A stretch of 63,365 nucleotides of DNA, counting the filler, from Conidiobolus incongruus B7586 (Eukaryota), in NCBI GenBank assembly GCA_000697335.1. It is 7 parts of 7 records of this genome, joined end to end, with 100 filler letters (N's around TTAATTAATTAA, not from the genome) between each part and the next. Parts side by side here need not be neighbours in the genome. Positions count along the whole stretch, not along the records: positions 10,039 to 20,821 come from JNEM01006322.1; 6 more parts are not named here. The stretch is one strand, 5' to 3'. This document shows, piece by piece, positions 1 through 56,865 of the stretch. Position 1 is the stretch's first letter, and each line of letters opens with the position of its first letter. The translations under genes were made by a program, and so were the position numbers. The notes below the pieces were generated by a model. The model was not told the DNA's origin and made no database searches. It saw only the letters and a program-made list of their open reading frames with translations.

Positions 1-311
1 TAGTGTAAGAAGTTAGTTGATTCTATACCCTACAAACTTAAAAAAGTTAAAAAAGCTAAAGGTAGATACACTAGGTTTTAATTTTTTTTTATCACCAAAA
101 ACCCACAAATTTATAACTCACCCTAGGTAAAATTAAAAAGTTTATATTTTAGTTAATTAATAGCTAAATATCATCATTTAATAATATATTTAATTAATAA
201 ATATAATAGATTTTAATTATTTAATTTAGATTTATTTTATTAAATATTAATCAAGTTATTAGTAAAAATATAAGTGTTTTTGATTTTATAACTCACTTTT
301 ACAAGTTAGTG
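1..311 (+). mobile_element. 3' end of Tc1-like DNA transposon (copy A), truncated by window edge
   Basis: Ends in TIR ...ttttgattttataactcacttttacaagttagtg followed by TA (312-313). It is the reverse complement of 1956-2265 and similar to ~4243-4552. Confidence 0.8.
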
Positions 312-313
312 TA

Positions 314-1072: not shown

Positions 1073-1404
1073 TATTAAAAGATTAATTTTTTAAATTCTT
1101 ATATATACTTTTATATAATTTAATTAACTATAAATTATATAATTAATTTTTACTTTTATAATTAAATTAATTATATAAATAATATTAAATTATTTAATAA
1201 GTTAGGTTTTTTTTTTCTTTTTAATTTTTACTATTTTTATCTTTTTCATTACTTTTAAAATTGAAACTACTTTTTATTAATATTATAATATATTAACACT
1301 ACCTAATATAAATTTTAATATATTAATAACTTATCCTAATTCAAAACTTAATTAAATTTTGTTTATATTTGTATATTACAGCTATATTATAATATTATAT
1401 TCTA

Positions 1405-4400: not shown

Positions 4401-4552
4401 TTAATATAATTAGATCAAATATACTTAATTATAAATAAATAATATAAGTTTATTATATGTTTTAATTTAAATTAATTTGATTAAGAATTAACAGAATTAT
4501 TGATAATAATATATATAATTATAATTTTATAACTCACTTTTACAGGCTAGTA
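1405..4552 (+). mobile_element. Tc1-like transposon copy C (1405-1955 plus 3525-4552, ~1.58 kb), interrupted by copy B
   Basis: TIRs tactaacctataaaaataactcataaaat... and ...attttataactcacttttacaggctagta, flanked by TA. Decayed transposase motifs: GGLIIIQGYM..KVDEGINT (cf. GGSVMVWGC), F**DNT (cf. FQQDNA), *SFNFNLIKYL* (cf. QSPDLNPIEHLW). Confidence 0.8.
1956..3522 (-). mobile_element. Full-length Tc1-like transposon copy B (~1.57 kb), pseudogenised transposase
   Basis: TIR cactaacctacaaaaataagttataaaatcaaaaa at 1956 and its inverse ending at 3522. TA duplication at 1954-55 and 3523-24. Host copy C resumes in register afterwards. Confidence 0.85.
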
Positions 4553-4979
4553 TATGTTACATTACTTTTATATTAAGTTTTCCTCTATACTATATCAATA
4601 TTTATTACTATACTTATAAAATCTTTACTTAATATTATTAAACTTTATTTATTATCTTTTTACTTATATAAAATATTACTTATAGAACATATCTATCTAG
4701 TATATAAATAAGCGCTACTTATATTAATAAAGTATTTAAAACATTTTTATCTATATTTATCTTTTAATCTTATTTATATCTAAACAAATAACTACTCTCT
4801 TATATATATCAAAAATCAAAAAAAATTAAGTAAATAACAAATTAATTAAATTAATTATATTTAAAAATTTAATCTTAAGATAGAATATATTAAAAAAACT
4901 TATAATAATATTATTAACTTACTATTTAAAAGAATTAATTATATACCTCTGTAGTTAAAATATCAAAATCCTATTCCTT

Positions 4980-6930
4980 AGTTAAATAATATTATTATCA
5001 ATTATAAATTTAACCTATTTTAAAATATAAAGTTTATTTTAAATTATGATGATTAATTTAGCACTATTAAATCTTTACTTAACAAAACAAATAAAGTTAA
5101 AGTTTTATAATGTATAAAACAATATAATTTCTTCAATAATCTTTTTTATTATTAATTTTATATTTAATTTTTAATTTTTTAAATATCAAAGTTAAAACCC
5201 TTATTATATATTATAATAATATAATTAGTGATTATTAAAGTTAATTAAAATTTTATAAAAAAATAACATTAAATTTTTATTAATTATATATTAAAACTGA
5301 AGTTAAAAAATATATGCTCTGATATAATAAATACTAATATAATAAATCTAATAACTAACTATCTTTTAAAACTTTAAACTTTTTATCTATTTTTAAAGAT
5401 TATTTGAAAGATATTATTATAAATTTTACTAATATACTAAAGTTTAATACAGATTAAAATAGTATTATAATTATTGCTAATTAACTCATAAAAATACTAT
5501 ATTTAATCTTAATAAAATATTAAAAAAATATTAAAACAATTGCTAGATTATTGGTTTAATATATATTTTGATATTATTAGTTTTTTTATACCATTATAAT
5601 AAATTATGATACCTATTTTACTTCAAAATTTTAGATTACTTTTATAAAACTACTTAATTATTAAAATATTCTTAACTTTTCTTAATATCAACAAACTAAT
5701 AAATAATTAAAAGAATATATTTATATAGTTAAAAAAGCTTTAAAACTATATCTTAAATATAATATATTTAATTAAAAACAAATATTATCTTTTTTAAAAT
5801 TTACCCTCAATGGTTTTATTAATTTATCTATTAAAATAATTTTATTTTACTTGATTTATACTTATTATCCTAAAGTTTAATAATTATAAGATTTAATAAC
5901 CTAATTATTTAAAACTCAATTAACTTTCTAAAACACTATAATATATTATTTGTAAGTATGGTGGTAAATACCAATATAATACAAAAGAAAATTTTAATAT
6001 AAAAATAATATAACATAGAGTATAGTTTTATAATGTAGCTATAGTGTGCAAATATAAATAAAGTTTAATTAAGCTTCAAACTAGGATAAGTCACTGATAT
6101 ATTAAAATTTATATTAGGTAGTACCAATATATTGTAATATTGACAAGATATAGTTTTAATCTTAGAAATAATGAGAAAGATAAGAAATAATAAGAATTGA
6201 GAGAAAAAAGGAGAAACCTTGTTTATTAGATACTTTAATATTATTTATATAAATAATTTAGGTATAAAAATATAAATTAATTATGTAATTTATAGTTAAT
6301 AAAATTATATAGAAATATATATAAAAATTTAAAGAACTAGTTTATTAATATTATTAATACTTGCATAAGAAAAAATCACCTATATATAAAATAAACAAGT
6401 TATATATTTTAACCAACACCACTATTATATTAAAAATTATTTATCTAGGATATTAATAATAGTTTAAGAAAATAAAATTAAATCTTCTTATAATAAGAAA
6501 TAACTTGACTTTAAATTAAAACCAAACTAACTCAAACCTTATTTTATTATAGATAAAAGAAATCATTTTAATATCTATACTTTAGATTTATCTCAAAAAA
6601 TAAAAATTCATTTTATGTTCTACACTAGTATATTAAAACCATACTATAATCTATTATTATAGTTTAATAACTAAAGATATGAATATTATAAATTACCTTC
6701 TTAAAGTAACCAACAAGATTACCTTTTTATTATTAATAAAATTCTTAACCAAAAACACCATTATACCTAAGATTTATATTTTGTCTAATAGAAAAGATAT
6801 CTTAGAAATAAAGCTACTTGGGAATACTATAATAATGCTAAAAAGACCAATGCTTATTATAATAATAGTAAGAAACACTTAAAAATTAGAATATTTCCTA
6901 ATAAAAATACCTTAATTTTAAGGGATTATT
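4980..6930 (+). mobile_element. Second degenerate Gypsy/chromovirus integrase-chromodomain region, interrupted by a solo LTR (boundaries approximate)
   Basis: Decayed motifs YDTYFTSKF* (cf. DRDPRFTSKFW), QQTNK* (cf. PQTDGQ), IHFMFYTSILKPY (cf. IHPVFHVSLLKPY) and YFV**K (cf. YLVKWKG). Confidence 0.55.
5951..6350 (-). mobile_element. Solo LTR (400 bp), same family as 1073-4618 and 39824-40209
   Basis: Starts TGTAAG and ends ATA (mutated ACA). 5-bp target duplication TTATT on both sides. Co-linear with 39824-40209. Confidence 0.8.
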
Positions 6931-7171
6931 AGAGATTAAATTATTTTATCATTTTTATAACATATTAATTATATTTGCTTATTTTATTTTATCTTTTTAT
7001 TTATTTAATCTTATTTTGCTTTATTTTCTTTTTGAACCCTTACCAATCCTTAAATATAAAAAAACAACTATCATCAAATAAACAAGGAATTTTTTTTATT
7101 TTATTCATATTAAAACAATTAATATATATACTAACCTATAAAAATAAATTATAAAATTAAAAATATATATA

Positions 7172-8491
7172 TTAGTATGGAAATTAAGAAATGGCAAATT
7201 TTTTAATTTCTGATCTTTCAAACATATTATACATTTTGAAAGATTATATATATATAAAATATATAGGAAAATAAATATTTTCAAACTATATATATATATT
7301 CAATTTTAATTATTTTTTTTATTAAAATATTTTGATTTTAAAATTTACACTTAAATTTAATCATGCTTAAACTAGATTGTGATTATCAAAAGGCTTTTAT
7401 TTTTGTATCTTTAAAACTTAACCATAAACCCTCTAAAATCATCTAAAACTTACAAACAGTTTATAGAGATGGTGCTTTATCTAAAACTACCATATATTGC
7501 TGGATTTGTGATTTTAAAGCTGGAAGGGACACTATTCAAAATTTACCAAAATCTAGAAGACCAATTTCTACTGTTACTCTTTCACTTACCAATAGAGTAA
7601 AAAAATATATTAAGAAATACCCTTTTATTTCTGTTAGAGAACTATCAAAGTAATTTAATATTAATCATATAAGCATGTTATATTTACTTAAGTTTAAACT
7701 TAGATTAATTAATAAAAATGTAAAATGGATACCTTATAATTTAACAGAAGCCTAAAAGAAAACTAGAGTAGCTATAGCTAAACTAAACTTATTAAGGTAT
7801 AACCAAAAACAAAGGTTTTTACAGTGAATACTTGCAATTGATGAATTTTGGATTCCTTTATATAATCCTTTACCTAAAAATAAAACAAGATGTTAGGTTA
7901 AGCCAAATCAATCCCCTCCACAAATTCCAATGAATAAGCACTTTGAATATAAGTGAATGTTAATTGTTGTAATAGATTATAATGGTATATGGTTTTTTTA
8001 TTTAATACCTCAAGGAAAATCAATTAATAGTAAGTTATATATTACTTTTTTAAATAAAACAATTTTTAAATGGTGTTCTCAATATAAATTAAAGACACCT
8101 ATTATTTTGCATGATAATTGCAAAATACATAAAGCTAAAGCTGTAAAAGATTTTTTATATAAAAAAAATTGGAGGGAGTTACCACATCCAGTATATTCAC
8201 CTGATTATAATCCATGTGATTATAATTGTTTTGGACAATTAAAAAAACAGCTTACAGGAAAAAAAATTCCTGCAAACAAATTAAATTGGTTTGTAAAACA
8301 TCAAATTTCAGTCTTTAATAAAAAGAACTGTTTTTTAGATATTAGAAGCTTACTAAAGGTATAGAAAAGAGTTATTAATAATAAAGGAGGCTATTAATTT
8401 TATATTATTCATTAAATTTTATATATTATTTATTAATTTATTTGTTTAATTTTAATTTTAAAATTGTACCATTATTTAATTTCTACACTAA
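7172..8491 (+). mobile_element. Full-length mariner (DD34D) element, 1320 bp, subfamily 1
   Basis: TIRs ttagtatggaaattaagaaatgg and ccattatttaatttctacactaa, with TA duplication at 7170-71 and 8492-93. Confidence 0.9.
7363..8397 (+). pseudogene. Mariner transposase pseudogene (345 codons, several in-frame stops)
   Basis: ATG 7363 to TAA 8397 in one frame. Motifs WIPYNL (cf. WVPHEL), AIDEFW, LHDNCKIH and YSPDYNPCDY, with 34 residues between the second and third catalytic Asp. Confidence 0.9.
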
Positions 8492-10788
8492 TATTTCTAT
8501 TAATATCTTAATCAATTTTAATTTAAATAAACTTATAATAAACTATGTAATTAATATATACTTTTTATTTATAATATAATATATAAAGTTAAATTTAATT
8601 AATAATTAATTGATATATTAAAACTAAAAGCATATTTAAAATGAGTTATAAATTTGTAGGTTTTAGTATTAATAGAAAAATTAATATCTAGTATATCTAT
8701 CTTTTGCTTTTTTAACTTCTTTAAGTTTATAGGATATAGAGTCAATTAGTTTCTTATATTAAGCAAGATTAATATTATTCTAAGCTTCTTAAATATACTC
8801 TTGAAGTTGATTTAAATTTTTTGCTAGTGGGAAAGCTTTAATTAATTTTTTTAGTTAATCCCAAAGATGTTTAATTAGGTTAAAATTAAGAGATCAAAGA
8901 GGTTATTTCATAATAGTTATTTTATTAATTTTAAGCTATTTAATAATAGAATTTGTAATATAACAAGGTGTATTATCTTGTTGAAAAATAATATTTGATT
9001 TTTTTTATTTATACCATTTAATAGTTTTTTTCAATTTATTGTTTAAAATACTTTAATATATCTCAGTATTAATTCCCTTATAAACCCTACAAAGATACCC
9101 TACACCTAAAGATAATATATATCCCTAAACTATAATTTACCTACTATTATATTTTTGGGTTATAATAATATAATAATTATAAAGTAGTTTTTGATTTTTT
9201 TTGAAATATCTAGCTTTTTTATTAGATTTATTAAAATATATCTTTGTTTTATTAAATTAAATAACTTTACTCTAGTTAATTTCAATTCAACTTTAGTGTT
9301 GACATTTAAATTCCCACTTAGTTTTATAATAGTACTTTTTTAATTAGGTGTGTTTTTTTTTAAATTGTAAGTAATATCTATTCTAATATAAAATATATAT
9401 AATAATATTAATATTAATTAATATTCTTATATAGTTTTATAATTCTTGTTATACTTCAATAGTAATATTACACTTACCTGTATTAACTAATCTATAAATA
9501 TATTTTTTATTATCTTTATCTATAATTTTAATATACTTAAGTTTTAATTTAGGTGTTTTTTTAACATTGTTCTTAATAACCTTAGTTATAATAGATTAGT
9601 TAATATTAATAATTCTAGCAATCTTATGAGTTGATTTATTTTTATTATAAAGTTGATTAATATATAAGTGAACTTTTTTAAAGAGAGATTTAAACATTAT
9701 AATATTAATTTTAAAATATTATCTTAATAGTTTTATAATATATATAATATAACAAAAGAAAAAAAAGATATAAGTTTTGTTTTTTATATTTTTTGAACTT
9801 ATAAACCCATAAATTTATAACTCACCTTGGTTAAGTTTTAAGTTTTGATATATTAACCAATAGTTAATAAAATATAATTAAATATAGTTAGTTATAATCA
9901 ATTAATATAGGTAAATTATATATTTTAATTTAAATTTANNNNNNNNNNNNNNNNNNNNNNNNNNNNNNNNNNNNNNNNNNNNTTAATTAATTAANNNNNN
10001 NNNNNNNNNNNNNNNNNNNNNNNNNNNNNNNNNNNNNNAGTTAACTTAAATGGTTGAAATTGATTTCAAATTAAAAAATAAAATATATATTGTTATTATC
10101 AATTTAAACTATATATTATTTTGGATATCTTAAATTTTTAATAGAATATCATATTCTTATATCAAAATATTTGAATATCATATAATAAAAATAAAGGGTT
10201 ATGAAGTAATATATAGGGTTTTATATTAATATTTAAAAATAATAAATATTAAACTTTTATTAAATTTATTAAATAGGTTGAATATGGATCATTATTCATT
10301 AATTATTTAATTTTGACTTGAGGAATTCAAGTTTGATTATATTTGAATTTTTATATAACGTGGTCTAAAATTATAATATGCTAATTATTTAATTATATGG
10401 TAGTATTATTAAATTATATATAGATATAAATATATATTGCTAATATATTATCTCAAATTCGAAAATTAATTATTCTGATTTTATTTGTTACTTATTATTA
10501 TTTCAAAAAAACATGTTGAAAATGTGATATTCATATATATATATTTTGAAATACTATTATTTTAAAAATAATGAAGTGAATAAAGATAAAGACAAGTTAA
10601 TTCTATGATGAAAGTTGGTGATAATCCTAATACAGAAAGGATTTAAAATGAGATATATCTGAAGAAATAATATATATGAATTGATAAATTATTTATAATC
10701 ATTTAAAGTTTATGTAATAATTATATATAAAAGAAAAATATGAATGTCGTTGGAAAATACTTTCAAAAATAATATCAATATTAAGATA

Positions 10789-10869
10789 CGACAAGAGCAG
10801 GATTTGAACCTACGCGGGAAATCCCATGTGCTTTCTAGGCACACGCCTTAACCACTCGGCCATCTTGTC
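10789..10869 (-). tRNA. tRNA-Ser (anticodon AGA)
   Basis: Minus strand GACAAGATGGCCGAGTGGTTAAGGCG-TGTGC-CTAGAAA-GCACA, long variable arm, GTTCAAATC T-loop, acceptor stem closing ..TCTTGTC-G. Confidence 0.93.
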
Positions 10870-11373
10870 ATAAAGCTCTTTCCAATTAAGAGATATTTCT
10901 CAACTTATATCAACATTTCGTAATTACTATATTTGAAATACTCATTTTTTTAAAAATCATAATTATAAATATTAATTTATTAAAACTATGTCAATCTCAC
11001 AATTTATATAATTTTAATTCCGAATTTTATTTATATAAATAATTAATATATTATTTATTCCATTTAAATTTATTATCATTTTTATTATTTTAAAAAAAAA
11101 TTTTATTTAAATTTGTATTATATTATTATATTTAAAATAAAAATAAAAATAATATATTAAATAAATTAATATTAAACCTTTTAGATTTAAAAAGATTAGA
11201 TAAAATTTGATTTGATTAGATTATAAATAATTTAAGAACAAATAAATATTAAAATAAATATATTAAAATAAAAAAAAAAACATTAAAAAACAGTCTAATT
11301 TATTTTATAATTAAAATAAAATTAATTAATTTATACTTTATTTAAGAATTCATATTATACAATAATAAAACAT

Positions 11374-11583
11374 TTATCGAGTGAAGTTAAGTTTTCTTGT
11401 ATTGCACCAGAAATCGACTGGTGGTAGATCTGAGTGTTTGGTCAATGTGGCATCCGTCAAAACCAATGAAGCCCTTCGAGATGGTGTAGGAGAAGTGACG
11501 CATGATGTAGATGGAGTGCAATTCGTGGAGTTAGTAGATGGCATAGTGTGTTTTGGCATTTCCGTAAGATATGTATATTCCAT
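11374..11583 (-). CDS. Ser/Thr-ladder microprotein family, copy 1 (69 aa, most divergent)
   Basis: GC-richer ORF in AT-rich context. MEYTYLTEM...NSTNCTPSTSCVTSPTPSRRAS aligns without gaps to five paralogs. TATAAATA (minus) at 11648-11655. Confidence 0.8.
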   Translation of the reverse strand: MEYTYLTEMPKHTMPSTNSTNCTPSTSCVTSPTPSRRASLVLTDATLTKHSDLPPVDFWCNTRKLNFTR

Positions 11584-14105
11584 TAAAAATATGAGTAGTA
11601 TGATTTAAAAGTTTAGCGAATAATACTGATTTTTAGTAATAGTACGTTATTTATAGTTTTTGATTTTTACTATTTTAATAATCGAAATTCAAATTAGTCC
11701 CAATAATTGACCAAATATTCCAATCAGCTTCAAAAGGCAGTAGTGATGCTGCATTCCTTCAGCCCCACATAATGGGAATTATTCATGAATCTTCTAGATT
11801 TTCTGGTCAATTTACTCATTTGTGATACGCAAAAAAATTGCCGCTATTGATCTATCTCCTATCATTTAACCACGTTATTTTCAATATATCACTCAAATTC
11901 AATATAAGAGCTGCAATAAACAGTGTTTTTGTATATAATTATATATACTTATCTAGTACATCTTTACTATTGTATCTTCTAATGAAAAGTTAATTTTCAA
12001 TTGAATAATAATAATAATGAAAAAGTTATTCTTTAATTCTCACTGATGTAACATTTTTAAATCATTAATCCAACAATTGAAAATATGAGAAAATTAATAT
12101 TATTTAAAATTCTAATAATATCAAAATAAAAAGGGTTCAAGATATTTTAAGTATTGTTAAATATTAGAAAAAAAATAAACAATAACAACAAATGATGGAA
12201 TTCTTTTTTTATTTGTGATAAATTTTATCACCTTTTAATATACAATTTAGTTTATTATTAGCCTATAGATTCCAAATTTGGCAATTTTTTTACAAATAAT
12301 AATTAGCAAGAATTAATCATTATTACCTAATTTTTTAATTTTTTTATAGTACCGAATATTTATAAACTTTATTACATATTTTTAATTAAAGAATTGATGA
12401 ATATTATAAATTGAGTTTTATAAAATGATTTATGTCTAATAGAGTCTAATTTATAATTAGTAATTTAATATAGATAAATCTTAAATTATTTAGATCTTTG
12501 GGATTTATAACAAGTAATAATAAACCGTATTTAAATAATTCAAGCATTTAGACTTCAACTTCGAAATTCAAGTTCCTGAATAAGTGTAATAGCCTATTTT
12601 AAATTGATAAATTTAAAATTTGAAAAACACGATTATAATGTTTTACAATGATTTCATCAATTTCAAATTTTAGTTCGGAATTTAATAAAAATAATATATG
12701 AGTTAAATTTGAATTATTGATATTTATATCTTATTTTAATAATAAAATACGTGGCAATTAGAATAAAAAAATCATTGAATATGTGTTTTAATTATTCAAA
12801 TTTATATATTAATATTAGAATCTTATTTGTCCCCTTATACTTTAGAATATAATATATTAGAATTATTCTTTTTTTAATAAACTAAAATTACTCAAACAAA
12901 TTTAATTAAAATTCAAATTTATAATTAAAGGTAATACAAGCTATAAAATTTACTTATAATAAATTAGTTTATAATCATAACGAATTTTATCTAAAAATAG
13001 TCAGTGTAAAATAATAGAAAAATTTTATATTTTCATCTATAGTCAAAGATTGGGTTTATTAACTTTCAATTTGATATAATTCTGAATAATATTGTCTAAT
13101 ATCATATATATATATATAGAAATTATTATTTTTAAAAAATCTAATGAATTTAAAATATGCAATATTAAATATTGTTGATATAATTATAATATTTAGTAGT
13201 GCCAGTATTATAATTAAAAGTATTAACGTAAATAAAAAAATTTCAAGATTTTAAAACTGCCAATTTCTTTTAATAATTCTTTTATTTACATAGGTTAATT
13301 TAAAATTGAATATTGTTTCAAGAAAAGGTATTGGAATAGCGTTAAAATGCTTATATTTTTATTAATCAAAAAATTTAAATATTTTCCCAGATGTTTATAT
13401 ATACATAATTATTTGAAATGTACTAGCAATGAATATAGTTTGAATTTAAGAAATACGTGAGATATTTTTGATTTAGTTATTAAATATTTTCAATTAATAA
13501 AGGTACATTGAAGTTGTATATTAATTTGGTTACTGATAAAAAGCAACAAAAAACTTTAAGTATATCAATGGATATTATAATATTTAATATATCTATAAAA
13601 TCATAAAATCGGAAAATGAGTATAATACAATTTAAAGCAAAATTAATTAGAAAACTAATTAAATCTAGTTTGCGTATTTTAGGGAATATTCAAATTTAAT
13701 ATTAGTAAATTAAAGTTATTTAGATTCTATTTTTTTAGAATTTAATAATAATAACAATAATGCATTATGCCAGGTACATTAAATTATGAAAACTAATTAT
13801 ATCAACATTTAAATAATTAAATTTGGTATAATTAAACAATTTTCTAGAAATTTATCAAGTATTCCAAAAATATTAAGATCCATTTTTTACTCATAATACT
13901 AATACAGTAATATTTAATTAGGCATTAATTTGTATTTTTTGAATGTTATGACAACAAATTTTATAATTATCTTCAAATTATAATTAAAATAACAAAAGTT
14001 GGGCTTATATGATTTCATTTCATTGTGTTTAGATGAATATATAAAGGATTGAAGAATTAGTATTGGTAGTATCGTTAATTATAGTAAACAAGTGTAGATA
14101 TCAAA

Positions 14106-14300
14106 ATGAAGCTACTTCACATTCCACTATTCGAAAAGCATCAATCTTCTAATCCTACTACAGCTCAAAATACTCCTTCCACATCTCGAGTTACATCGCC
14201 CGTAGGATCACCCAGACAATCTATGGATTTACACCATACGAATGCTAAGAATCATAAAGAAGAACATTTGCCATATCATTTGATGACCTTCATCAAATAA
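14106..14300 (+). CDS. Ser/Thr-ladder microprotein family, copy 2 (64 aa)
   Basis: ..SSNPTTAQNTPSTSRVTSPVGSPRQS..LPYHLMTFIK. TATATAAA at 14038-14045. Confidence 0.85.
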   Translation: MKLLHIPLFEKHQSSNPTTAQNTPSTSRVTSPVGSPRQSMDLHHTNAKNHKEEHLPYHLMTFIK

Positions 14301-14969
14301 GCTAACGTTTCATGATCTTAAATATCTAACGCAATTATTTAATGAATTTTTTTATTGTAATTAAAAATATAAAATATTAAATGTAAATAAAAATAATATA
14401 ACATTAAAATTATTTATTTGTTTAAACAATATATTTTAAATTTATTATTCATTTTAATTAATTTATTCTTTTTTTGCATTTATATTTGATTATTATAAAA
14501 AATGAAAAAAAATATATTGATAATAGATTATTTTTTTAATATATTGAAATTAGTTCAATAACTATATAGTTGAATAATATATAATGTGAATATTACAATT
14601 AAAATTTTGTGTTTTTATATTTATTCATAATGATTTAATTTTTAGAATATTTTTAATATGAAAATTTATATAATCTCAAAATTTAATTAAATTTAATAAA
14701 GATATATTTTTAATATAAATTTATTATGAACAAAATCTAAAATTAAAATTTTAATTGATTTAAAAATAGATTATTTTGGAAATATTCGGAATTAGTAAAC
14801 TTTGAATAAAATTATTTAAAAAATTTATTAAAAGTGGAGTAAAATCCAAATTTTGGAAAAATTTATGAAATAATTGAGAATAATTTTAATTGATATAAAT
14901 AGAGCATTAAGTTACTTACAATTATCATCAAACAATCAGAATTACAAACAGATAACATTGCAATTAACT

Positions 14970-15164
14970 ATGGATCAAATTCACTTGGCTGAATTAGAAA
15001 GACATCGCTCTTCTGCTCCTAACTCTGCTCCTAACTCTCCCTCAGTTTCCCGAGTTGCTTCACCCGTTGGATCACCAAAAGTTTCAATGGAATCAGAAAG
15101 ACCAAACAAACGCCAATCTGTACACCATGTTCTACCATTTCAATTGATGAGCTACATTAGATAA
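14970..15164 (+). CDS. Ser/Thr-ladder microprotein family, copy 3 (64 aa)
   Basis: First ATG is at 14970 (the ORF track starts at an upstream TTG). MDQIHLAELERHRSSAPNSAPNSPSVSRVASPVGSPKVS..LPFQLMSYIR. TATAAATA at 14894-14901. Confidence 0.88.
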   Translation: MDQIHLAELERHRSSAPNSAPNSPSVSRVASPVGSPKVSMESERPNKRQSVHHVLPFQLMSYIR

Positions 15165-15821
15165 CTCCACTTGTACAAATTCATCTCATGTTTTATAACT
15201 CTTGTTGATTTTCTTTGTATTATAATATTAAAATAGCATATGATTAATAAACTTAATTCAAATTTGATATAGTAATTTGTTTACATTTTTCTTTGATTCA
15301 TTATAATAAAATAATTTATGTGAAATAGAGTTGATCATTGATTCAATACCCAAAAATATCAATATGCTCTAAGTTAAGTTTTTATTATAATATATTAAGC
15401 ACTGAATTATTATGTAGTATTTAAAACTTAGAGTAATGAATAATCAAATTTTAATTTTTTTTAGAAATCAAGACATATATTATGATATTATTCTTTTAAT
15501 TATTCCAAGTATATTGTTATGAGTATAAAATTGAACAGAATTATAAATTTGGTTAGAATAATTTGAATATATTAATATTAATATGATTTGTAAAATATAT
15601 AGTTAATAATGAATTGAAATTTTTGGATTGAATTCATACAAGAATAAGGTATTTTTTTTAAATATTAGAGTAATTAATTGAATATAATTCATATATTATA
15701 TGGAGCATGTAAAATATTCTAAATTGAATATTTTTACATTATTGAAAAATTTTGAAATATTTAATTATCAAAGTAAAATTTAAGTACTACAATAATCTAA
15801 ATATTTTATTGATTTTATTTC

Positions 15822-16360
15822 TGTGGCAATTCCTACTTGATTGATATCTTTTCTCACTCAAATTCACTACCAAGTTTCTGATTAGCCAAATCAGGCCTTA
15901 TCAATATTCTACTAGTCTATGTCTGAGTGGCCTCATTGTTACTCAGCCGCTGCATACTTATGCCTATATATTTCACTTAGTTATAAGAAAGACTCTTCTT
16001 CTCCTCTCTTTTTTACACAAACAAACCTTTTACCTAATTTCAAAAACAATCCCTTTTAGTATACTCAACTAGTTACCTATAGTTCCACTTGAGTCATCTT
16101 TCATTACTCATTTTCAACTCCTTCCTATTAATATTTTGTGATTCCATCTTCTTAGAATATCGGATCCTAACGCCGCCACTGTTGCCGCTGGTCTAGCCGC
16201 TCTTTACAACGGCCAGTTTACGAGTAATTATGACCGGATAGCCAGAGAACTGAAATTCGGTAGTTTATCGCAGTTAGTAGGTGCGATGCTGCACAATCTG
16301 GCCTATAGAATAGAAGTGTCAGTGCCCTTAATGACACTCCAAGAACTAATAACCTCCACA
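15822..16360. mobile_element. Putative solo LTR (539 bp) immediately upstream of tRNA-Lys
   Basis: TGTGG...CCACA inverted termini. Near-perfect 5-bp target duplication ATTTC/ACTTC. GC-richer than flanks, with no long ORF. Confidence 0.6.
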
Positions 16361-16369
16361 ACTTCATAA

Positions 16370-16442
16370 GCCCGGCTAGCTCAATCGGTAGAGCGTGAGA
16401 CTCTTAATCTCAAGGTTGTGGGTTCGACCCCCACGTTGGGTG
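16370..16442 (+). tRNA. tRNA-Lys (anticodon CTT)
   Basis: GCCCGGCTAGCTCAATCGGTAGAGCG-TGAGA-CTCTTAA-TCTCA..GGTTCGAC.., followed by a T6 Pol III terminator. Confidence 0.95.
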
Positions 16443-16689
16443 CTTTTTTCCATTCCAATATTTTATTTATTTTATTATAGTTTTCCATTAATGTTTCTAA
16501 TAAATTATCTTAAATTTAATTATTATATTAGTTAATTTTTTGAGATATACAAATTATTATTTGGTTAATATTATCATTTTTATATATAAAATTTAACTGA
16601 GTTTATTATAAAAATAATTAAATTACATAATATAAATTTCAATATAATATACACTATTCTAGAATCGGTGTGATGTAACCACTATCGTA

Positions 16690-16884
16690 TTATCTAGTGT
16701 AAGATAGTATTTGATAAGACAGGGTATTATAATTAGTATTGGTGTTTATATGCCTTTGTACAGAGATTGAGTTTCTTGGAGATCCAATGGGAGATGTAAT
16801 ACGCGAGACAGAAGGTGTGTTATAAGCAGAATTGGGAGTGGAAGAGTGACTTCTTTGTAATTCAGCCAAGTAAGTATAATCCAT
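16690..16884 (-). CDS. Ser/Thr-ladder microprotein family, copy 4 (64 aa)
   Basis: MDYTYLAELQRSHSSTPNSAYNTPSVSRITSPIGSPRNS..LSYQILSYTR. TATAAATA (minus) at 16952-16959. Confidence 0.88.
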   Translation of the reverse strand: MDYTYLAELQRSHSSTPNSAYNTPSVSRITSPIGSPRNSISVQRHINTNTNYNTLSYQILSYTR

Positions 16885-18358
16885 TGTTAATTATTAAATA
16901 AAGTGTTTATATTAAATTGATTTTTTGAACAAATTGTAACAACTAGAATGGTATTTATAGTTTTTTGATTTTAAATCAAATTAACATCAAAATATTGATT
17001 AGTCTTGATAACTTAACCTAATGGACTTATCGCCCCAACTATTCATTCTAAATATTTCATTAATTCAACAATTATTTTAAAAATGTTAGTTAAGAATAAC
17101 AAAGAACATTTTGGAACTTGATTTCTAAAAATAATTACTACTTAATCTAGTCATCATCACTTAAAGATTTTTCACAAGAAATTTGAATATATTCAATTTT
17201 TTGAAATTTTCCAATATTAGTAAAATTCAAAAGTTATTTTAAAAATTGAAGATAAAATGTTGGGGTATTCCGTTTAATTATTTCCTATATTAGATTTGTG
17301 TATCCCGATTACTATATCAATCTCAACATCAGTAATATTTTATACTATAATAATGTTTTCAAGTGTACAATGTAATGACAATGATAATTTTCAATTGATA
17401 CAAAATTTAATTATTAAATTAATTAAAAATTGTACATTTGGAATTATTTGTGATTGAATTTTCTTAATTCTAATCATATAATTAGCAATTGTAAAGTCCA
17501 AATATAACTTTATATAAATATTTTTTTTATCTTTTTTGTTTAAAAAACACGTAATTCAAAACTAATATCCAAATAATCGCAGCGAATAAGATAGCTTCGA
17601 ATCTATATTATTCATATTTTTAACCAGTTAATTCTTGATTTTTTAATAGTTAAGATAGAACAAAAATTGTCTATTATGATATTATATGTTATTAAAATTC
17701 AAATTTGAGTAAGCTAATTGACAAATCATATTAAAATTGTTCATGAATTTAATGTATTTTTATTAATAAATTGACTCAAGTACAAATAATTTTTTCAATT
17801 TCCAAACTCATCAATTTTGTCATAATCAATATTAATTATAGCCTATGAAACAGTTTGTTTATCAATACCTTTGAAATACTAATGGATAAATGTTAATATC
17901 ATTAATAATATTTATCCATTGGTTACAACAATCTCAACCTTAATTTTGTCAAAATGCAATCATTTTCAAAAACAAATTTTATATTGACTTTAAAATTAGC
18001 CTTAACTCATACAATTGTATTCTATGTATTATGAAAATGAGTCAAGTTATTTTAAATTTTATATAATTCTATATAATTTTAGTTGAAATTTGTAATAAAA
18101 AATAATTAATCCAATTTATCACTAAATTCAATATAGTAAACTGACTATTATTACATCATTAAACCTATCCACCTATCAAGTATCTATCCAATTTCCTTTT
18201 TAAATTCACCTATAAACCAGTTGAATAATCACTGTAAACGAAAAGTTGAACTGTATTATTAATTCGAATCAATTGATGAGAGTATAAATACTACTCAGTC
18301 TATTATGACAAAAGCATCAATACATTCATTTGCATATACAAAACACTTATTGCTACTC

Positions 18359-18553
18359 ATGGATCAAATCTATTTGGTTGATTTAGAAAGAGCTCGTTCT
18401 TCTGCTCCCAACTCCGCTTTTAGTACTCCCTCATCTTCTCAAGTCACATCTCCAGTTGGATCTCGAAGGGTCTCTATTGAATCGAACACATCCCATAGGA
18501 ACGATTCCAAACATTACCGCATTCAATATAATTTGATGAGCTATATCCGATGA
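18359..18553 (+). CDS. Ser/Thr-ladder microprotein family, copy 5 (64 aa)
   Basis: Start chosen by homology (MDQIYLVDLE..); the in-frame ATG at 18305 is only ~15 nt past the TATAAATA at 18283-18290. ..SSAPNSAFSTPSSSQVTSPVGSRRVS..IQYNLMSYIR. Confidence 0.85.
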   Translation: MDQIYLVDLERARSSAPNSAFSTPSSSQVTSPVGSRRVSIESNTSHRNDSKHYRIQYNLMSYIR

Positions 18554-19566
18554 GGAAAATGTTGAAAATCTTCAAGTTGTATTATATCACTGTTATCTTC
18601 ATTTATATGTATCATATTTAAAATTTTTAACTAATAAAAATTATTCATAACACTAAAATTTTAATATTTTATTTTTAAATTTGTTTGATATTAAATATTT
18701 TTATTAAGGTTTACTATTATCTCAATTAAAAATTATATTAAATTTATTGAACGCAAAATCATTTTGATTAATCTTTCAGTTATTTTTATTTAAAATTAAA
18801 AAATTAAAATAACGAATATTATGTCAATTATGAAAAAATAGCTGAAATATTCAAAATTTTCATCAAATTATATTATTAGGTTACTTATTTTTATACCAAT
18901 TTACTATAATTTTATTACTGATCAAACATTATTATTAGTGTGAATATCTCTACATATATCAAGTTTGGCCATATTAATCCATAAAATTTGTATTATAGGC
19001 GGGTTTTTTATTATTCTACTTCATTCATCGAATTAATCAGGCATAGATCAAATTATTACTAAATATACATTTAATCAATTATTCCACTTATAAAATAAGT
19101 TATAAAAAATCTATTTTGTTACTTAATAAATCATGTATATATATGCTTATTAAAATTAGGAAATGTGATAATTGATATACATTTTATGAATTTGGAGAAT
19201 TATAAATATTATAACATTAAATACATCATTATTGAATGTTCAGAATAATTATAGAAATATAATTAATTTGAAGATAATTTTAATTGCAAAGTCAAACTTG
19301 GAATTTGGTAAATTGATTTTGTTAGTTCAACATTAAAATAATTTGGAATTTTGGAAATAATCGGATTCGGTGTATTTTATTCTAAAGATTTTTTCCTGAA
19401 ATTTTAGTCAAAGTTGGGTTATTTCCAGTTTTTGGGAAATAATGATTTAATCTCTCAGTTATATTAATAATTCAGTTTAATTCCAATTGGTATAAATACT
19501 CCATCATGTTACTTGCAAACATCATCAAACAATCAGAATTACAAACAGATAACATTGCAATTAACC

Positions 19567-19761
19567 ATGGACCAAATTCACTTGGCTGAATTAGAAAGAC
19601 ATCGCTCTTCTGCTCCTAACTCTGCTTATAACTCTCCCTCAGTTTCCCGAGTTGCTTCACCTGTTGGATCACCAAAAGTTTCAATGGAATCAGAAAGACC
19701 AAACAAACGCCAATCTGTACACCATGTTCTACCATTTCAATTGATGAGCTACATCAGATAA
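19567..19761 (+). CDS. Ser/Thr-ladder microprotein family, copy 6 (64 aa, near-identical to copy 3)
   Basis: Differs from copy 3 by one residue (P>Y). TATAAATA at 19491-19498. Confidence 0.88.
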   Translation: MDQIHLAELERHRSSAPNSAYNSPSVSRVASPVGSPKVSMESERPNKRQSVHHVLPFQLMSYIR

Positions 19762-20479
19762 CTCCACTTGTACAAATTAATCTCATGTTTTATAACTTAA
19801 TTGCTCCTGTATTATTACACCAAGATAGAATATTAATTAATAAATAAAATTTCAATATATTCAATATCATAAATAGTTAAGTTATTTAAATTTTGAAATA
19901 TATAAATTTTTAATGATTAAATCGAAATACATCATTCAATATTCGACCAGTTAATTTATATATATTATTTGATATTAAAATAATATATTTATTCTCATTA
20001 TTACCTATATTCTAAAATTTAAAATAATTATCACCATTATTTTTAAACTATTAAATTATTATTTTTGGCTATAGTAAAATAGATATTTTTTAAAAAAAAA
20101 TAATAATATATATTTCTGCATAATTATTAAAAAACTAATATGATATAGTTAATTGAATTATATTTCTATTTAATAAATTTTTAAAGTTTTATTTTTATTT
20201 TATATCATCTAATTAATTAATTATAATTAAAATTTACTTAAAATCTTTATAATTCATATTTGATTGTTTAAATTTAATTGATAAAATTTCAAGGATTTAT
20301 ATCACCATGAATTGAATATATAGTAGAATATAATAATTTTGAAATATTTGAAGGAATTTATTTATAATTGCTTTTTATAAATAATTTATTATATAATATG
20401 AATTTTCAATATAATTTAATATAACATAAGTGTTTTTGAATTAAACCATAATTTATCTTATAAATAATAATATTAATAT

Positions 20480-20821
20480 AGAAAATAAATAATAACCTAA
20501 TTTTAATTTTAAAATTAAAGTATTATTATTATATAAAATATCAAAATTAATATATAATATAAAACCAATATTCTTTTTTATTATCAATAATTTTTTGCTA
20601 TAGTTTTAGCATACTTTTAATATCTAAAAAATAATTATTTATTAAGGATTGAAATTTAATATTTTATAAAATTATTTAATTTACTAATAAAAGTTTTTTT
20701 AAGTATATTTTTTAAATTACTAAAATAATTATATGTAAATAGGCTATAATCTAATATATATATTAGATATAATAGCTTTTTTTCTAGTTTTTTTAAATAA
20801 ACAAACTATTATTAATTTAAT
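20480..20821 (-). mobile_element. Heavily decayed mariner 3' fragment at gap edge
   Basis: Resembles the reverse complement of ~8150-8460 and the fragment at 48370-48640. Confidence 0.5.
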
Positions 20822-22244
20822 NNNNNNNNNNNNNNNNNNNNNNNNNNNNNNNNNNNNNNNNNNNNTTAATTAATTAANNNNNNNNNNNNNNNNNNNNNNN
20901 NNNNNNNNNNNNNNNNNNNNNTACTTCAAAATAATATATAATATTAAATTAAATTAAAATAATATTATTTAAAAATTCCTATAAACTATTTTTTTAACTA
21001 TAAGAAAATATTAATTATTATAATGGATTATCAAAATATATAGTTTTATTATTTAATTTGTAAATATAAAATAATTAAAAAAAGTTTTATACTTTTTGTT
21101 AATTAAAATAATTTTAATTTATGATCTGATAATAAATTATAACACTTGTTCGTTTTTATAAAATAATATTCCGATTTAGTTACTTCTTATATTTTTCCTT
21201 TTTTATCTAAACCTTCCTGAAAATTATTTCTTACTTTATCATACTTTAATTATCTAAACCTTATCTTAATAAAGCCACTAACTTATATAGCCATAGAAAA
21301 ATAATTTTAAAAAATTAATCAATAATTAATTCTCTAGTTTTTTTGGATAACCTAAGTAACTTCAACTTTAAAAAAATTATTATAGCTATATTAGTTTCTA
21401 GCAATAGGATAATATATATAATAATTTAAAAATATCAAATTAAAAATTTTCTAAGTAAATAAACTAGAAAACATAATTATATCTAATATATTTTTTAAAT
21501 TAAAACCAATATAATTATAATAATTATAAATAAAAAAATTTTTCAAGAAAAGATTTTTATATATAAATTAAATTAATATATATAATATTAAATTTAACTT
21601 TTTGAAAAGAGAATTATTTTTTATTTATTATAAGATTGCTATATATATAGCAAAAAGTTATTAATAATAATGAAAAAATTGATTTTATCTTATATATTAT
21701 TTTTTTTAATAATATACAAATTATTTTATTTAATCCTGATAAATTTTATTATTATTTAGTTATTATATTAATTTTAAAAATTAATTAAAATTTAAAACTT
21801 ATTAAAATTGGAGCTTTATATCAAATATATATAGATTTATATTAAGATTAAATCTTAATATTTATTAATATTAATTATTTAATAAAAAGGAGAATGTTGT
21901 GTTTAATGGTATATTGCTGGAAACTATATACCAATATAGAATAATATTTGTTATTTATGGTAAATAACATAATTTATCTAGATAATGAATAAATATTAAT
22001 AATGATATTTGGAATAATTAGATTTGAAAATAAAAATAAAAAAAAACATATATTAGATTAGGTGCGAAAAAAATGAAGATGAATTATATATATAATTACA
22101 CATTTTGAAAAAATATTTAAAAAGCTTTAGAGAATATAGATTGAAATTAATATTTAATAAAATTAGTATCAATTAAATTAAATTTTATTAAGAGAGTAAG
22201 GAATATTTAAATTATTCAAATTATAAATTAGAAGGAAGAATTAA

Positions 22245-22318
22245 GCTTCCATGGCGCAATTGGCTAGCGCGTCCGACTGTTAATCGGGAGGTTGGTGGTT
22301 CAAGCCCACCTGGGAGCG
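22245..22318 (+). tRNA. tRNA-Asn (anticodon GTT)
   Basis: GCTTCCATGGCGCAATTGGCTAGCGCG-TCCGA-CTGTTAA-TCGG..GGTTCAAGCCCACCTGGGAGCG, with a downstream oligo-T. Confidence 0.93.
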
Positions 22319-23295
22319 TAATTCTATTTCGAGACATTTTTTTTATTTTAGTAATCAAACCTCATTCCTCTAATATTACTTATTATTTTAATAATTTTCT
22401 CAAATAATTATTTAAAAATTTAAATTTTTTGTTTTCAGTAAATCATTGTTATGATAGGAAATAACAATGTCAATCACTCAAGAAACTGCAATTACAACAC
22501 TGAATTAACAAGTCAAATTGGGGCACGCCCATTTTCTGAACTGGGGGTTACGTTTCTTATTCTCACTGAGTCATTTCTATCCATAAAAATCAACAATGAA
22601 AACTAATATAAGATTATCATGAGCAAAATAATAAATATAACTCTTTTATCATTTCAAAAATATCCAGTCTCTAAGTTTTTCTCGTAGTCCTATCAAAAGC
22701 ATTGAGTCGTAATAAGCGTAAGATATTTACTTTACTCGAAGAACCCGATTTACAGTAAGCTGTTTTCAACTCATTTGGAGAACCCATTAATTTCCCCCTA
22801 ACTCTGTGGTAATTTATCGTTTACACTGGTGATTCCCTATTTGAGCTCTAAAAGTCTATTTCCTCCCATAATTACGGTCGTCACTTACAACAAAAACAAA
22901 ATCATTAGTTAAATAACTCAATATTTTCAAAATTTTATCTAAACTATAAATTTCATATAATTTTATTTTAATTTTTGGTTTCTTTATATCACAAGGAATC
23001 TCGTTTATCAGTTTTTCCATAGTTGCGATATTTCCAAACCTTAAACTGCTGTTTTATTTTCAATTATTGTTTTCATTGAATTATTAGATATTATTATTGA
23101 TTTCTTCTAAACTAAAAAATTTAAAGAGATATTCCATAATTTGAAATTATTTAAATAAAATTCAACTTGATAATGTAATCCCATAATAATATCATTTCAT
23201 AATAAAAATCCAATTAAAGCCAATTTGAATTTAATTAAATTTTATTACAAATCAAAATTTAATAATAAATTAATCCATAATTCAAATTATTCAAA

Positions 23296-24651
23296 ATGGG
23301 AGGGCATGGTGAAATTCCATTAGACCAAATCCCTATGGAAGTAATTCAAGTAGATCCTAATGATTTAAAAACCAACATCAGTCTCATTAAACCAGGTTGT
23401 ACTTTATATGTTGAAAAGGAAGACGGTGGCGAGACTTTACATAGACCAGCTCAAGTTTTATATGTTCAAAATCCTACAGATCCTGTTAACATCCGACTTT
23501 ATGTTCACTATCATCGCTTCAATAAACGTCTTGATGAATGGGTCCAAATTGATAGAGTTGACTTTAGTAGAGGTATTGAATTTCCAAAGCCAGAAGCTGA
23601 AGGAACACCAAATAAAAGCAGAAGTAATAAAAAGAAAGCTAAATCTAACCAGAAAAAGGGAAGAAGTCAAGAGCTAATTCAACAAAGTTTGGAGGATGAA
23701 ACTGATAGTGAAGCTGTATCCGAAGTGACTAATGATGATGACGAAAACACAAAGAAGCGCAAGACTCCAGTTCGCTCTGGATCGATGAGAGCTCATACAG
23801 ATAATCTGGCCAAGGTGAAAAATTTAAATAAGATTCAAATAGGAGGATACGAAGTAGAAACTTGGTACTTTAGCCCATATCCTGAGGATTTTGCATTTTC
23901 TCCTCTGGTTTATATTTGTGAATTTTGTCTGTCTTATTATAACGATACGGTTGCTTATCAAAGACATCGCACCAAATGTACCCTCCTACATCCTCCAGGT
24001 AATGAAATCTATCGTCATGAAGGCCATTCATTCTTTGAGATTGATGGTAAAAAACAAAGAACTTATTGCGAAAATCTCTGTCTACTTTCCAAACTCTTTT
24101 TGGATCACAAAACCCTCTACTATGCTATCGACCCTTTTTTATTCTACATCCTCACTAAGCAGGATGAAAAAGGTCATCACCTCGTTGGATACTTCTCCAA
24201 AGAGAAAAACAGCCCCCAAAACTATAATGTTGCATGTATTTTAACTTTGCCTCAATACCAACGTATGGGTTATGGTAGATACTTGATCCAATTTTCTTAT
24301 GAGCTTAGTAAAATAGAAAAGAAAACAGGTAGTCCTGAAAAGCCTCTCTCTGATCTTGGTCTTATGGGATATCGTGCATATTGGTACGAAGTATTAATCA
24401 ATCTCTTGAGAAATATGCAAACCACCACTATTGATGCCCTTAGTAAAGAAACTAGTATTACGCCAGAAGACATTCGAACCACACTCCTTGAGAAGGAGGC
24501 ACTTAAAACCTTCAAGGGAAATTATGTCATCTATCTCAAAAAAGATGACTTGGACAAGTATGCCAAATTGAGTAAGAAAAAGCGTCTCAACGTTGATCCT
24601 TCTAAAATTATATGGACTCCTCCTTTGTTGTTAGATTACTTAAAGCATTAA
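23296..24651 (+). CDS. ESA1: MYST-family histone acetyltransferase (Esa1/Tip60/KAT5-like), intronless
   Basis: Tudor-knot chromodomain (YVHYHRFNKRLDEWV), WYFSPYP, C2HC finger (CEFC..H..C), LFLDHKTLYY, acetyl-CoA motif QRMGYG, and GSPEKPLSDLG. Confidence 0.93.
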   Translation: MGGHGEIPLDQIPMEVIQVDPNDLKTNISLIKPGCTLYVEKEDGGETLHRPAQVLYVQNPTDPVNIRLYVHYHRFNKRLDEWVQIDRVDFSRGIEFPKPEAEGTPNKSRSNKKKAKSNQKKGRSQELIQQSLEDETDSEAVSEVTNDDDENTKKRKTPVRSGSMRAHTDNLAKVKNLNKIQIGGYEVETWYFSPYPEDFAFSPLVYICEFCLSYYNDTVAYQRHRTKCTLLHPPGNEIYRHEGHSFFEIDGKKQRTYCENLCLLSKLFLDHKTLYYAIDPFLFYILTKQDEKGHHLVGYFSKEKNSPQNYNVACILTLPQYQRMGYGRYLIQFSYELSKIEKKTGSPEKPLSDLGLMGYRAYWYEVLINLLRNMQTTTIDALSKETSITPEDIRTTLLEKEALKTFKGNYVIYLKKDDLDKYAKLSKKKRLNVDPSKIIWTPPLLLDYLKH

Positions 24652-56722: not shown

Positions 56723-56828
56723 TTACCTTGAATTTGAAATAATGGGAAATTTTTTAATTTCCGATTTTTCAAACATATTATTAGTTTGAAATGAATAAAT
56801 ATATACAAAGTTAATAGGAAATTATATA

Positions 56829-56865
<37 letters not shown>

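What the first reader, a model, noticed from the sequence alone, without database searches (positions are those of the whole stretch)
11374..19761. Cluster of six paralogous 64-69 aa microprotein genes of no recognisable family
Seen: six intronless ORFs in mixed orientation (11583-, 14106+, 14970+, 16884-, 18359+, 19567+). Five are exactly 64 aa and they align without gaps over the first ~40 residues. Each is a GC-richer island with a TATA box about 60-70 nt upstream of the ATG. Architecture: M(D/E)xx(Y/H)Lx(E/D)L head, S/T/P core, variable ~15-aa linker, conserved tail. There is no signal peptide. Inference: conserved length and protein pattern despite divergent DNA imply purifying selection on a real, expanded family that gene callers would easily miss. 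I do not recognise it as a described family.
Basis: partly seen in the sequence, partly recalled or inferred. Interest (0 to 1): 0.9.

Follow-up and report, generated by a model that had tools for sequence, protein, structure and literature searches.

The report
Fungal microproteins with seven-rung phospho-ladder
Six neighbouring fungal genes encode 64-69-residue proteins of an undescribed family whose one strictly conserved feature is a serine or threonine at every fourth position, likely a chain of kinase sites that would let each tiny protein work as an on/off signalling switch.

Summary
The six ORFs are present at the stated coordinates, each with a TATA box 68-76 nt upstream. The core (residues 12-39) is under purifying selection (dN/dS 0.20-0.31 at dS about 1 in nine pairs). 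Sixteen relatives were found; the six named ones are hypothetical proteins of Conidiobolus coronatus, which appears to carry a matching gene pair and a second cluster. No significant Pfam, PDB or Atlas match, and no describing paper in four searches.

The last four rungs are Ser in 22 of 22 sequences, and S39 lies in [RK]-x-S-hydrophobic (RRxS in 12 of 22). That is the layout of a primed GSK3 relay started by a basophilic kinase such as PKA, with a Cdc6-like TPxxS degron inside. Best reading (about 0.5): disordered microproteins whose N-terminal helix binds a partner and is switched by sequential phosphorylation.

Expression, phosphorylation and partner are all untested. Weak points: no RNA run was listed; one copy has no lysine, against a universal degron; two copies are 97% identical. 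An undescribed, apparently lineage-restricted family built on a known module.

The parts
11374..11583 (-). g1, 69-aa member, the most divergent; ladder S19-S39 (P at 15), RRxS at 39, different tail
11648..11655 (-). TATA box of g1 (starts -72)
14038..14045 (+). TATA box of g2 (starts -68)
14106..14300 (+). g2, 64 aa; groups with C. coronatus CONCODRAFT_76828 (66% identical, support 100/100); atypical head
14894..14901 (+). TATA box of g3 (starts -76)
14970..15164 (+). g3, 64 aa; closest named relative CONCODRAFT_2430 (66-67%); recent duplicate of g6
15012..15086 (+). codons 15-39 of g3: the seven-rung i+4 Ser/Thr ladder (same codons in the other copies)
16690..16884 (-). g4, 64 aa; full ladder; contains no lysine
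16952..16959 (-). TATA box of g4 (starts -75)
18283..18290 (+). TATA box of g5 (starts -76); the in-frame ATG at 18305 lies only 14 nt after it and is probably not in the transcript (inferred)
18359..18553 (+). g5, 64 aa; full ladder, RRxS at 39
19491..19498 (+). TATA box of g6 (starts -76)
19567..19761 (+). g6, 64 aa; differs from g3 at one residue; duplicated unit 14869-15251 / 19466-19844

Best explanation
These are six paralogous genes for small, basic, predicted mostly disordered proteins that carry a seven-site Ser/Thr ladder at i+4 spacing, likely phosphorylated in sequence by GSK3 after a PKA-type kinase primes the last rung, which would switch the binding of their short predicted N-terminal helix to a still unidentified partner. 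Steps: (1) TATA-driven short genes make 64-69-aa proteins without export signal: sequence shown, expression inferred (about 0.9). (2) A basophilic kinase phosphorylates S39 in [RK]-x-S-hydrophobic; PKA fits best where the site is RRxS: motif shown, kinase inferred (about 0.55). (3) GSK3 walks towards the N-terminus through S35, S31, S27, T23, S19, S15: spacing shown, kinase inferred (about 0.7). (4) Up to seven phosphates turn a protein of net charge about +2 to +3 strongly negative and arrive next to the helix (residues 3-14), releasing or engaging its partner; in lysine-bearing copies pT23-P-x-x-pS27 could also recruit SCF-Cdc4: inferred (about 0.5). Paralogues share the ladder and differ in linker, tail and promoter, which would give the same switch different outputs or timing (inferred).
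For: S27, S31, S35 and S39 are Ser in 22 of 22 aligned sequences; positions 23, 19 and 15 are Ser/Thr in 21, 21 and 20 of 22; 19 of 22 have all seven rungs. Ser/Thr frequency is 0.97 in that phase against 0.05, 0.13 and 0.35 in the other three, reached by 1 of 200,000 column shuffles; periods 2, 3, 5, 6, 7 give at most 0.61. Within single window proteins, 0-112 of 20,000 residue shuffles give as long a ladder. Ladder codons vary at the silent position (four different codons at S27), so the residue is what is kept. Position 37 is R/K in 22 of 22, position 40 hydrophobic in 21 of 22, RR/RK-x-S in 12 of 22. TPxxS at 23-27 in 18 of 22; full CDK and MAPK consensus each in only 1 of 22. GSK3 consensus, C-to-N sequential phosphorylation and PKA priming: PMC5954166 passages. 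GSK3-made Cdc4 degron TPTTS in yeast Cdc6: PMC4501359 passages. PKA and GSK3 on NFATc1 SPXX motifs: PMC6858710 passage. AlphaFold2: helices 3-14 and 57-63, coil between, pTM 0.18.
Against: Everything past the motif is inference: no phosphorylation, expression, localisation or partner data. Only 2 of the 6 window copies have the two basic residues PKA prefers; the other four have P at 36. R-x-x-S-P at 28-32 in 16 of 22 offers a DYRK-type priming point that would bypass S35/S39 (PMC10952393 passage). g4 has no lysine and g5 one, against ubiquitin-driven decay as the common output. The head is only moderately conserved, differs in the g2 subtype, and shows no clear dN/dS signal in its 11 codons. 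The structure model is low confidence (mean pLDDT 61.7). The 16 outside sequences were found with profiles that reward the ladder columns and are related, so their counts are not independent. No calcineurin, PP1, 14-3-3 or B56 docking motif is shared (each at most 2 of 22).
Confidence: 0.5

Rival explanations
1. Decoy or buffer: the proteins are only ladder carriers, made in quantity to occupy GSK3, a phosphatase or SCF-Cdc4 and so delay or sharpen signalling on real substrates; head and tail have no partner of their own.
For: The only invariant columns besides Met1 are ladder serines. Strong TATA boxes in 6 of 6 and repeated duplication, including a 97%-identical pair, would suit selection for dose. 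The linker is unconstrained between paralogues.
Against: Head positions 6, 9 and 10 keep L/I, a mostly hydrophobic residue and E across subfamilies, and orthologues keep subtype-specific heads and tails (g2 with CONCODRAFT_76828), more than a bare decoy needs.
Confidence: 0.18
2. The ladder is read by other enzymes or is structural: DYRK/Yak1 at R-x-x-S31-P, Aurora-type kinase at [RK]-x-S39-hydrophobic, proline-directed kinases at T23/S31/S35, or four-residue (S/T)PXX turns binding nucleic acid in a basic disordered protein.
For: RxxSP in 16 of 22 and [RK]xS-hydrophobic in 21 of 22; P follows 23 and 31 in 21 of 22 each; pI 8.6-10.2 in the window copies. The Aurora consensus and SPXX DNA binding are recalled, not from a call.
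Against: Rungs 15, 19, 27 and 39 mostly have no following Pro and no motif of their own yet are kept at exact i+4 spacing, which a primed relay explains; SPKK-type motif in 0 of 22, full CDK site in 1 of 22; net charge is only +1 to +6.
Confidence: 0.15
3. Precursors of small processed peptides (conserved leader, variable core at 40-54, follower), like MSDIN cyclic-peptide or pheromone precursors.
For: Conserved 1-39, variable 40-54, semi-conserved tail in five copies; linker pN/pS 0.53-1.46 between paralogues; multi-copy intronless small genes.
Against: No MSDIN start, CaaX end or signal peptide; the linker is partly kept between orthologues and the tail is not family-wide; no ORF of 80 aa or more other than the family members' own frames lies between 8.4 and 23.2 kb, so no tailoring enzyme is visible in the cluster; a phospho-ladder is not needed in a leader.
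Confidence: 0.06
4. Duplicated non-coding or decayed sequences whose open frames persist by chance.
For: No RNA evidence in hand; whole-length dN/dS reaches 0.54-0.70 in pairs with g2.
Against: Core dN/dS 0.20-0.31; differences fall at third codon positions (0.53 against 0.23 and 0.24 in the core); no stop in the coding frame in 6 of 6 while 29 of the 30 other frames have stops; TATA at a fixed distance; orthologues in another species.
Confidence: 0.04

Closest known systems
Conidiobolus coronatus hypothetical proteins CONCODRAFT_2430, _76828, _77098, _77099, _77100, _19175
   Same: Same family: same length class, head and ladder; 2430 and 76828 have consecutive accessions (KXN74620.1, KXN74619.1) and the same longest-contig length, as g2 and g3 are neighbours here.
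   Different: They are unnamed gene models without function; 'CONCODRAFT' occurs in 0 papers of the library. The 77098-77100 group has another tail.
Primed GSK3 relays: glycogen synthase, beta-catenin (S45, T41, S37, S33), Ci/Gli3 and CREB (PKA-primed)
   Same: Ser/Thr at i+4 with a C-terminal priming site; PKA as priming kinase for some substrates (PMC5954166 passages).
   Different: There the relay is a segment of a large enzyme or transcription factor (the beta-catenin passage lists four sites); here seven rungs are 25 of 64 residues of a stand-alone protein. No DSGxxS (0 of 22).
NFATc1 SPXX motifs
   Same: SPXX motifs phosphorylated by PKA and GSK3, reversed by calcineurin (PMC6858710 passage). 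A close likeness of SPxxSP[RK]xS to the NFAT repeats is recalled, not tested by alignment.
   Different: No DNA-binding domain; PxIxIT 0 of 22 and LxVP-type 1 of 22. Analogy only.
Yeast Cdc6 T368-S372 phosphodegron (Mck1/GSK3 plus SCF-Cdc4)
   Same: TPxxS with Thr as the GSK3 site (PMC4501359 passages); TPxxS in 18 of 22 members.
   Different: Cdc6 is primed by Cdk1; full CDK sites are nearly absent here, and g4 has no lysine.
Small phospho-switched regulators: 4E-BP, endosulfine/Igo1, PP1 inhibitor-1, calcipressin/Rcn1
   Same: Small, disordered, folded-domain-free proteins controlled by clustered phosphorylation (established knowledge, recalled).
   Different: Their defining motifs and Pfam models do not match.

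Membership tests
Primed GSK3 relay substrate (works like) | Ser/Thr repeated at i+4 | tested here: met
   7 rungs in 19 of 22; 1 of 200,000 column shuffles; per-protein shuffles
Primed GSK3 relay substrate (works like) | priming-kinase site at the C-terminal rung | tested here: met
   [RK]-x-S39 in 22 of 22, RR/RK-x-S in 12 of 22, only 2 of 6 window copies; motif only
Primed GSK3 relay substrate (works like) | actual priming-dependent phosphorylation by GSK3 | not testable with these tools
   needs kinase assay or phosphoproteomics
SCF-Cdc4 phosphodegron substrate | pT-P-x-x-pS motif | tested here: met
   18 of 22; 4 of 6 window copies
SCF-Cdc4 phosphodegron substrate | acceptor lysines | tested here: inconclusive
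   0 Lys in g4, 1 in g5, 2-5 in the other window copies, 2-9 in outside members
4E-BP | YxxxxL-hydrophobic motif; Pfam model | tested here: not met
   0 of 22 (motif recalled); no Pfam hit
Endosulfine/ARPP19/Igo1 | FDSxDY motif; Pfam model | tested here: not met
   0 of 22 (motif recalled); no Pfam hit
Calcipressin/Rcn1 | SPPxSP motif, calcineurin docking motifs; Pfam model | tested here: not met
   0 of 22; PxIxIT 0, LxVP-type 1 of 22; no Pfam hit
PP1 inhibitor-1 type | RVxF docking motif | tested here: not met
   1 of 22, none in the window
MSDIN-type RiPP precursor or lipopeptide pheromone | MSDIN leader; CaaX end; signal peptide | tested here: not met
   0 of 22 for both motifs; no hydrophobic segment
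Mitochondrial ribosomal protein mL59 (PF18126) | Pfam gathering score 31.5 bits | tested here: not met
   16.1 bits, E 0.015, 1 of 22 members
Non-coding RNA family | Rfam match over the ORFs | tested here: not met
   only three tRNAs in 10000-23000 at gathering threshold

The most novel reading that the evidence does not exclude
A new class of stand-alone phospho-timer microproteins: little more than a seven-step PKA-to-GSK3 relay with a docking helix, expanded in two gene clusters so that paralogues convert a cAMP signal into delayed all-or-none outputs for timed events such as spore formation or discharge. In the boldest form one of them fills the role of the progressively phosphorylated negative clock element in a fungal order where frq homologues were not found (PMC11105155 passage); I found no relative named from Entomophthora and no shared promoter motif, so that last step is speculation (about 0.03).
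Probability: 0.2. Interest if true: 0.85.

Novelty: new variant of a known kind. Interest (0 to 1): 0.55.

Why it matters
If the reading holds, this is a natural minimal multisite-phosphorylation device: seven GSK3-spaced sites in a 64-residue protein, present as a set of natural variants with different priming sites. That makes relay length, processivity and switch sharpness directly testable with synthetic full-length proteins. It would also give a first signalling role to a multi-copy family so far listed only as hypothetical proteins in an early-diverging, insect- and occasionally mammal-infecting fungal lineage, and shows that a family invisible to Pfam and fold searches can be read from motif spacing. 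The limits: the known range is narrow and nothing is shown experimentally.

Tried and rejected
Pfam: 6, 10 and 22 members, only mL59 at E 0.015 in one member, below its cut-off. PDB sequences: three chance-level hits, best E 0.067. ESM Atlas: best feature score 0.76 to an unnamed arthropod-rich cluster for one query, no usable named hit for the other; structure rows rest on models of pLDDT 0.30-0.34. No fold search was run on my own low-confidence model, and no complex prediction, as no candidate partner was in hand. Sequencing runs: no RNA holder listed, which is no evidence either way. No whole genome is held, so copy number outside the window is unknown. Metagenome contig scans: 278 and 219 pattern matches, none confirmed, so no flanking DNA of relatives was seen. 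Exact look-up: 0 of 9 window proteins in the collection. Shared upstream word TTCCAA in 6 of 6 promoters: rejected, 159 of 1000 random sets do as well; STRE, CDRE and CRE patterns absent in 6 of 6, HSE-like in 4 of 6, not tested for chance. Docking and sorting motifs tested and not shared: RVxF, PxIxIT, LxVP, B56, 14-3-3, D-box, KEN, PTS1, CaaX; a loose AIM pattern hits 12 of 22 but is too degenerate to use. The word-based protein searches covered only 34-165 residues; longer fused forms were covered only by the one whole-library search with the six-sequence profile, which listed none. Earlier scan findings: three look-ups, nothing. Paper search returned 0 papers and one search returned 2.
Full report
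Observation. The six ORFs are present exactly as listed; I call them g1 (11583-11374, minus, 69 aa), g2 (14106-14300), g3 (14970-15164), g4 (16884-16690, minus), g5 (18359-18553) and g6 (19567-19761), the last five 64 aa. They align without gaps over residues 1-41. Protein and DNA profiles built from them find these six and nothing else in the window; that search is circular for the six but rules out a seventh copy. ORF GC is 0.35-0.42 against 0.10-0.32 in the flanks, and 29 of the 30 alternative frames contain stops. A TATA box starts 68-76 nt before the ATG in 6 of 6, while 4.7% of 15-nt spans in the region hold such a start. The longer g5 frame from 18305 starts 14 nt after its TATA box, so the 64-aa start is the likelier one (inference). 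g3 and g6 are a recent duplicate: 97% identical in the ORF, with only 7 mismatches from -46 to +230.

Selection. Nei-Gojobori counts: for residues 12-39, dN/dS is 0.20-0.31 at dS 0.84-1.15 in the nine pairs of 64-aa copies other than g3/g6; pairs with g1 give 0.38-0.43 (three) or are saturated (two); g3/g6 gives 0.89 on three differences. Codon bootstrap P(pN>=pS) is at most 0.038 in 14 of 15 pairs. Over all 64 codons dN/dS is 0.21-0.70 with 5 of 10 pairs under 0.05. The linker (40-54) shows pN/pS 0.53-1.46, and the 11-codon head and 10-codon tail are too short to decide. Pairs are not independent and the method ignores AT bias.

Relatives. Three word-based searches (lengths 34-165 only) and one whole-library HMMER search (5 hits at E up to 0.001 among 1.84 billion) gave 16 outside proteins. 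Six are named, all hypothetical proteins of Conidiobolus coronatus NRRL 28638: CONCODRAFT_2430, 76828, 77098, 77099, 77100 and 19175; ten come from unnamed JGI or Logan records whose organisms I do not know. 2430 and 76828 have consecutive accessions and the same longest-contig length; 77098-77100 share another, so two clusters are likely there (inference; I could not fetch the DNA). In a 22-row tree g2 groups with 76828 (100/100), ten outside proteins form a second subfamily (97/94), and g1 is a long branch of unsure place. g3 is 66-67% identical to 2430. The window is therefore probably from a Conidiobolus-like fungus, though not that reference (0 of 9 window proteins in the collection); this rests on this family and on AT-rich eukaryotic gene content, not on marker genes. 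Pfam, PDB, Atlas and Rfam gave nothing significant.

The ladder. In the 22-sequence alignment the only invariant columns besides Met1 are S27, S31, S35 and S39. Positions 23, 19 and 15 are Ser/Thr in 21, 21 and 20 of 22, and 19 of 22 carry all seven rungs (g1 has six ending at 39, two outside proteins four and five). Over residues 13-41, Ser/Thr frequency is 0.97 in this phase of period four and 0.05, 0.13, 0.35 in the others; 1 of 200,000 column shuffles reaches it and other periods reach at most 0.61. Because outside members were retrieved by profiles that reward these columns, I also shuffled each protein on its own: 0, 0, 4, 23, 80 and 112 of 20,000 shuffles give as long a ladder in the six window proteins (core-only shuffles 3-44, and 887 for g1). 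Ladder codons differ at silent positions. S39 has R/K at -2 in 22 of 22 and a hydrophobic residue at +1 in 21 of 22; 12 of 22 (g1 and g5 in the window) have a second basic residue at -3, the other ten have Pro there. Position 23 is the one rung that is usually Thr (19 of 22) and is followed by Pro (21 of 22). AlphaFold2 gives a low-confidence model (pLDDT 61.7, pTM 0.18) with helices at 3-14 and 57-63 and coil between. There is no hydrophobic segment; net charge is +2 to +3 in the window copies.

Mechanism. GSK3 phosphorylates a Ser/Thr four residues before an already phosphorylated one, works sequentially towards the N-terminus on beta-catenin, and is primed by PKA on Ci, CREB and the PP1 G-subunit (PMC5954166, passages). 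PKA and GSK3 act on the SPXX motifs of NFATc1 (PMC6858710, passage). In yeast Cdc6, GSK3 (Mck1) phosphorylation of the Thr in TPTTS creates a Cdc4-binding degron (PMC4501359, passages). The family reads as such a relay freed from any folded domain: priming at S39, six further steps to S15, ending beside the head helix. I put the GSK3 relay at about 0.7, PKA as primer at about 0.55 and the whole model, with a partner-binding head switched by charge, at about 0.5. Against: four window copies have a weaker PKA context; RxxSP at 28-32 in 16 of 22 fits DYRK, itself a GSK3-priming kinase (PMC10952393, passage); g4 has no lysine, so degradation cannot be the common output in the ordinary way; no docking motif is shared; and no partner is identified. 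Rivals: decoy or buffer (0.18), other kinases or nucleic-acid binding (0.15), processed-peptide precursor (0.06), non-coding (0.04).

Comparison. It works like a primed GSK3 relay, but it fails membership of 4E-BP, endosulfine, calcipressin, inhibitor-1, MSDIN and CaaX-pheromone families by motif (motifs recalled) and by Pfam. I found no paper describing it: 'CONCODRAFT' 0 papers; Conidiobolus gene-family and transcriptome searches and a microprotein/GSK3 search listed nothing on it by title and abstract start (search listings only); passages of PMC9026835 and PMC11105155 do not mention it. The library lacks most subscription papers, and I did not open supplements, where expression tables for the C. 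coronatus gene models could exist. PMC11105155 reports no frq homologues in its entomophthoralean genomes, the only basis for the clock speculation.

Expression. No RNA holder was listed; this is no evidence. No genome and no flanks of relatives could be obtained. A shared upstream word was rejected by a random-set control.

Verdict. Observation confirmed; interpretation supported and extended. A real, undescribed, apparently lineage-restricted microprotein family whose conserved element is a seven-rung GSK3-type ladder. New variant of a known kind; interest 0.55.

Noticed in passing
window 16142-16442 (+): A GC-richer, 75-codon stop-free frame without a start ATG ends on the base just before a tRNA-Lys(CTT) gene, between g3 and g4; it has no repeat in the window. 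Could be a mobile-element remnant or an exon.
   Followed up: partly
window 10788-10870 (-), 16370-16443 (+), 22245-22318 (+): Three tRNA genes (Ser, Lys, Asn) flank and interrupt the cluster.
   Followed up: no
window 9939-10038 and 20822-20921: Assembly gaps (N runs around a 12-nt AT linker) bracket the cluster, so further copies could be hidden in them.
   Followed up: no
window 14924-15200 and 19521-19797: The near-identical tract of g3/g6 (7 mismatches, -46 to +230) begins about 30 nt after the start of the TATA box and ends about 35 nt after the stop, roughly the expected transcript; could reflect gene conversion, an RNA-templated copy or selection on the UTRs.
   Followed up: partly
window 1-9950, 31369-32282, 39767-40215, 48290-49475, 56701-57935: Several interspersed repeat families at 66-97% identity; 7957-8364 encodes a DDE_3 transposase fragment (E 1.6e-10).
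   Followed up: partly
window 23296-24651 (+): Intronless MYST acetyltransferase with Tudor-knot, zf-MYST and MOZ_SAS domains (Esa1-like by recall), the nearest conventional gene.
   Followed up: no
window 42236-42955 (+), 45477-45812 (-), 53641-54387 (-): Exons of an aspartyl protease, a tyrosinase-like protein (E 1.5e-4) and a heme oxygenase.
   Followed up: no
window 34781-35105 and 63004-63363: GC-richer inverted pair at 73% identity, possibly paralogous coding exons.
   Followed up: no
proteins P0004 and P0008 (CONCODRAFT_19175): Nearly identical up to about residue 62, then unrelated; one of the two gene models may be mis-spliced, hinting at an intron in that subtype.
   Followed up: no
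   Followed up: no
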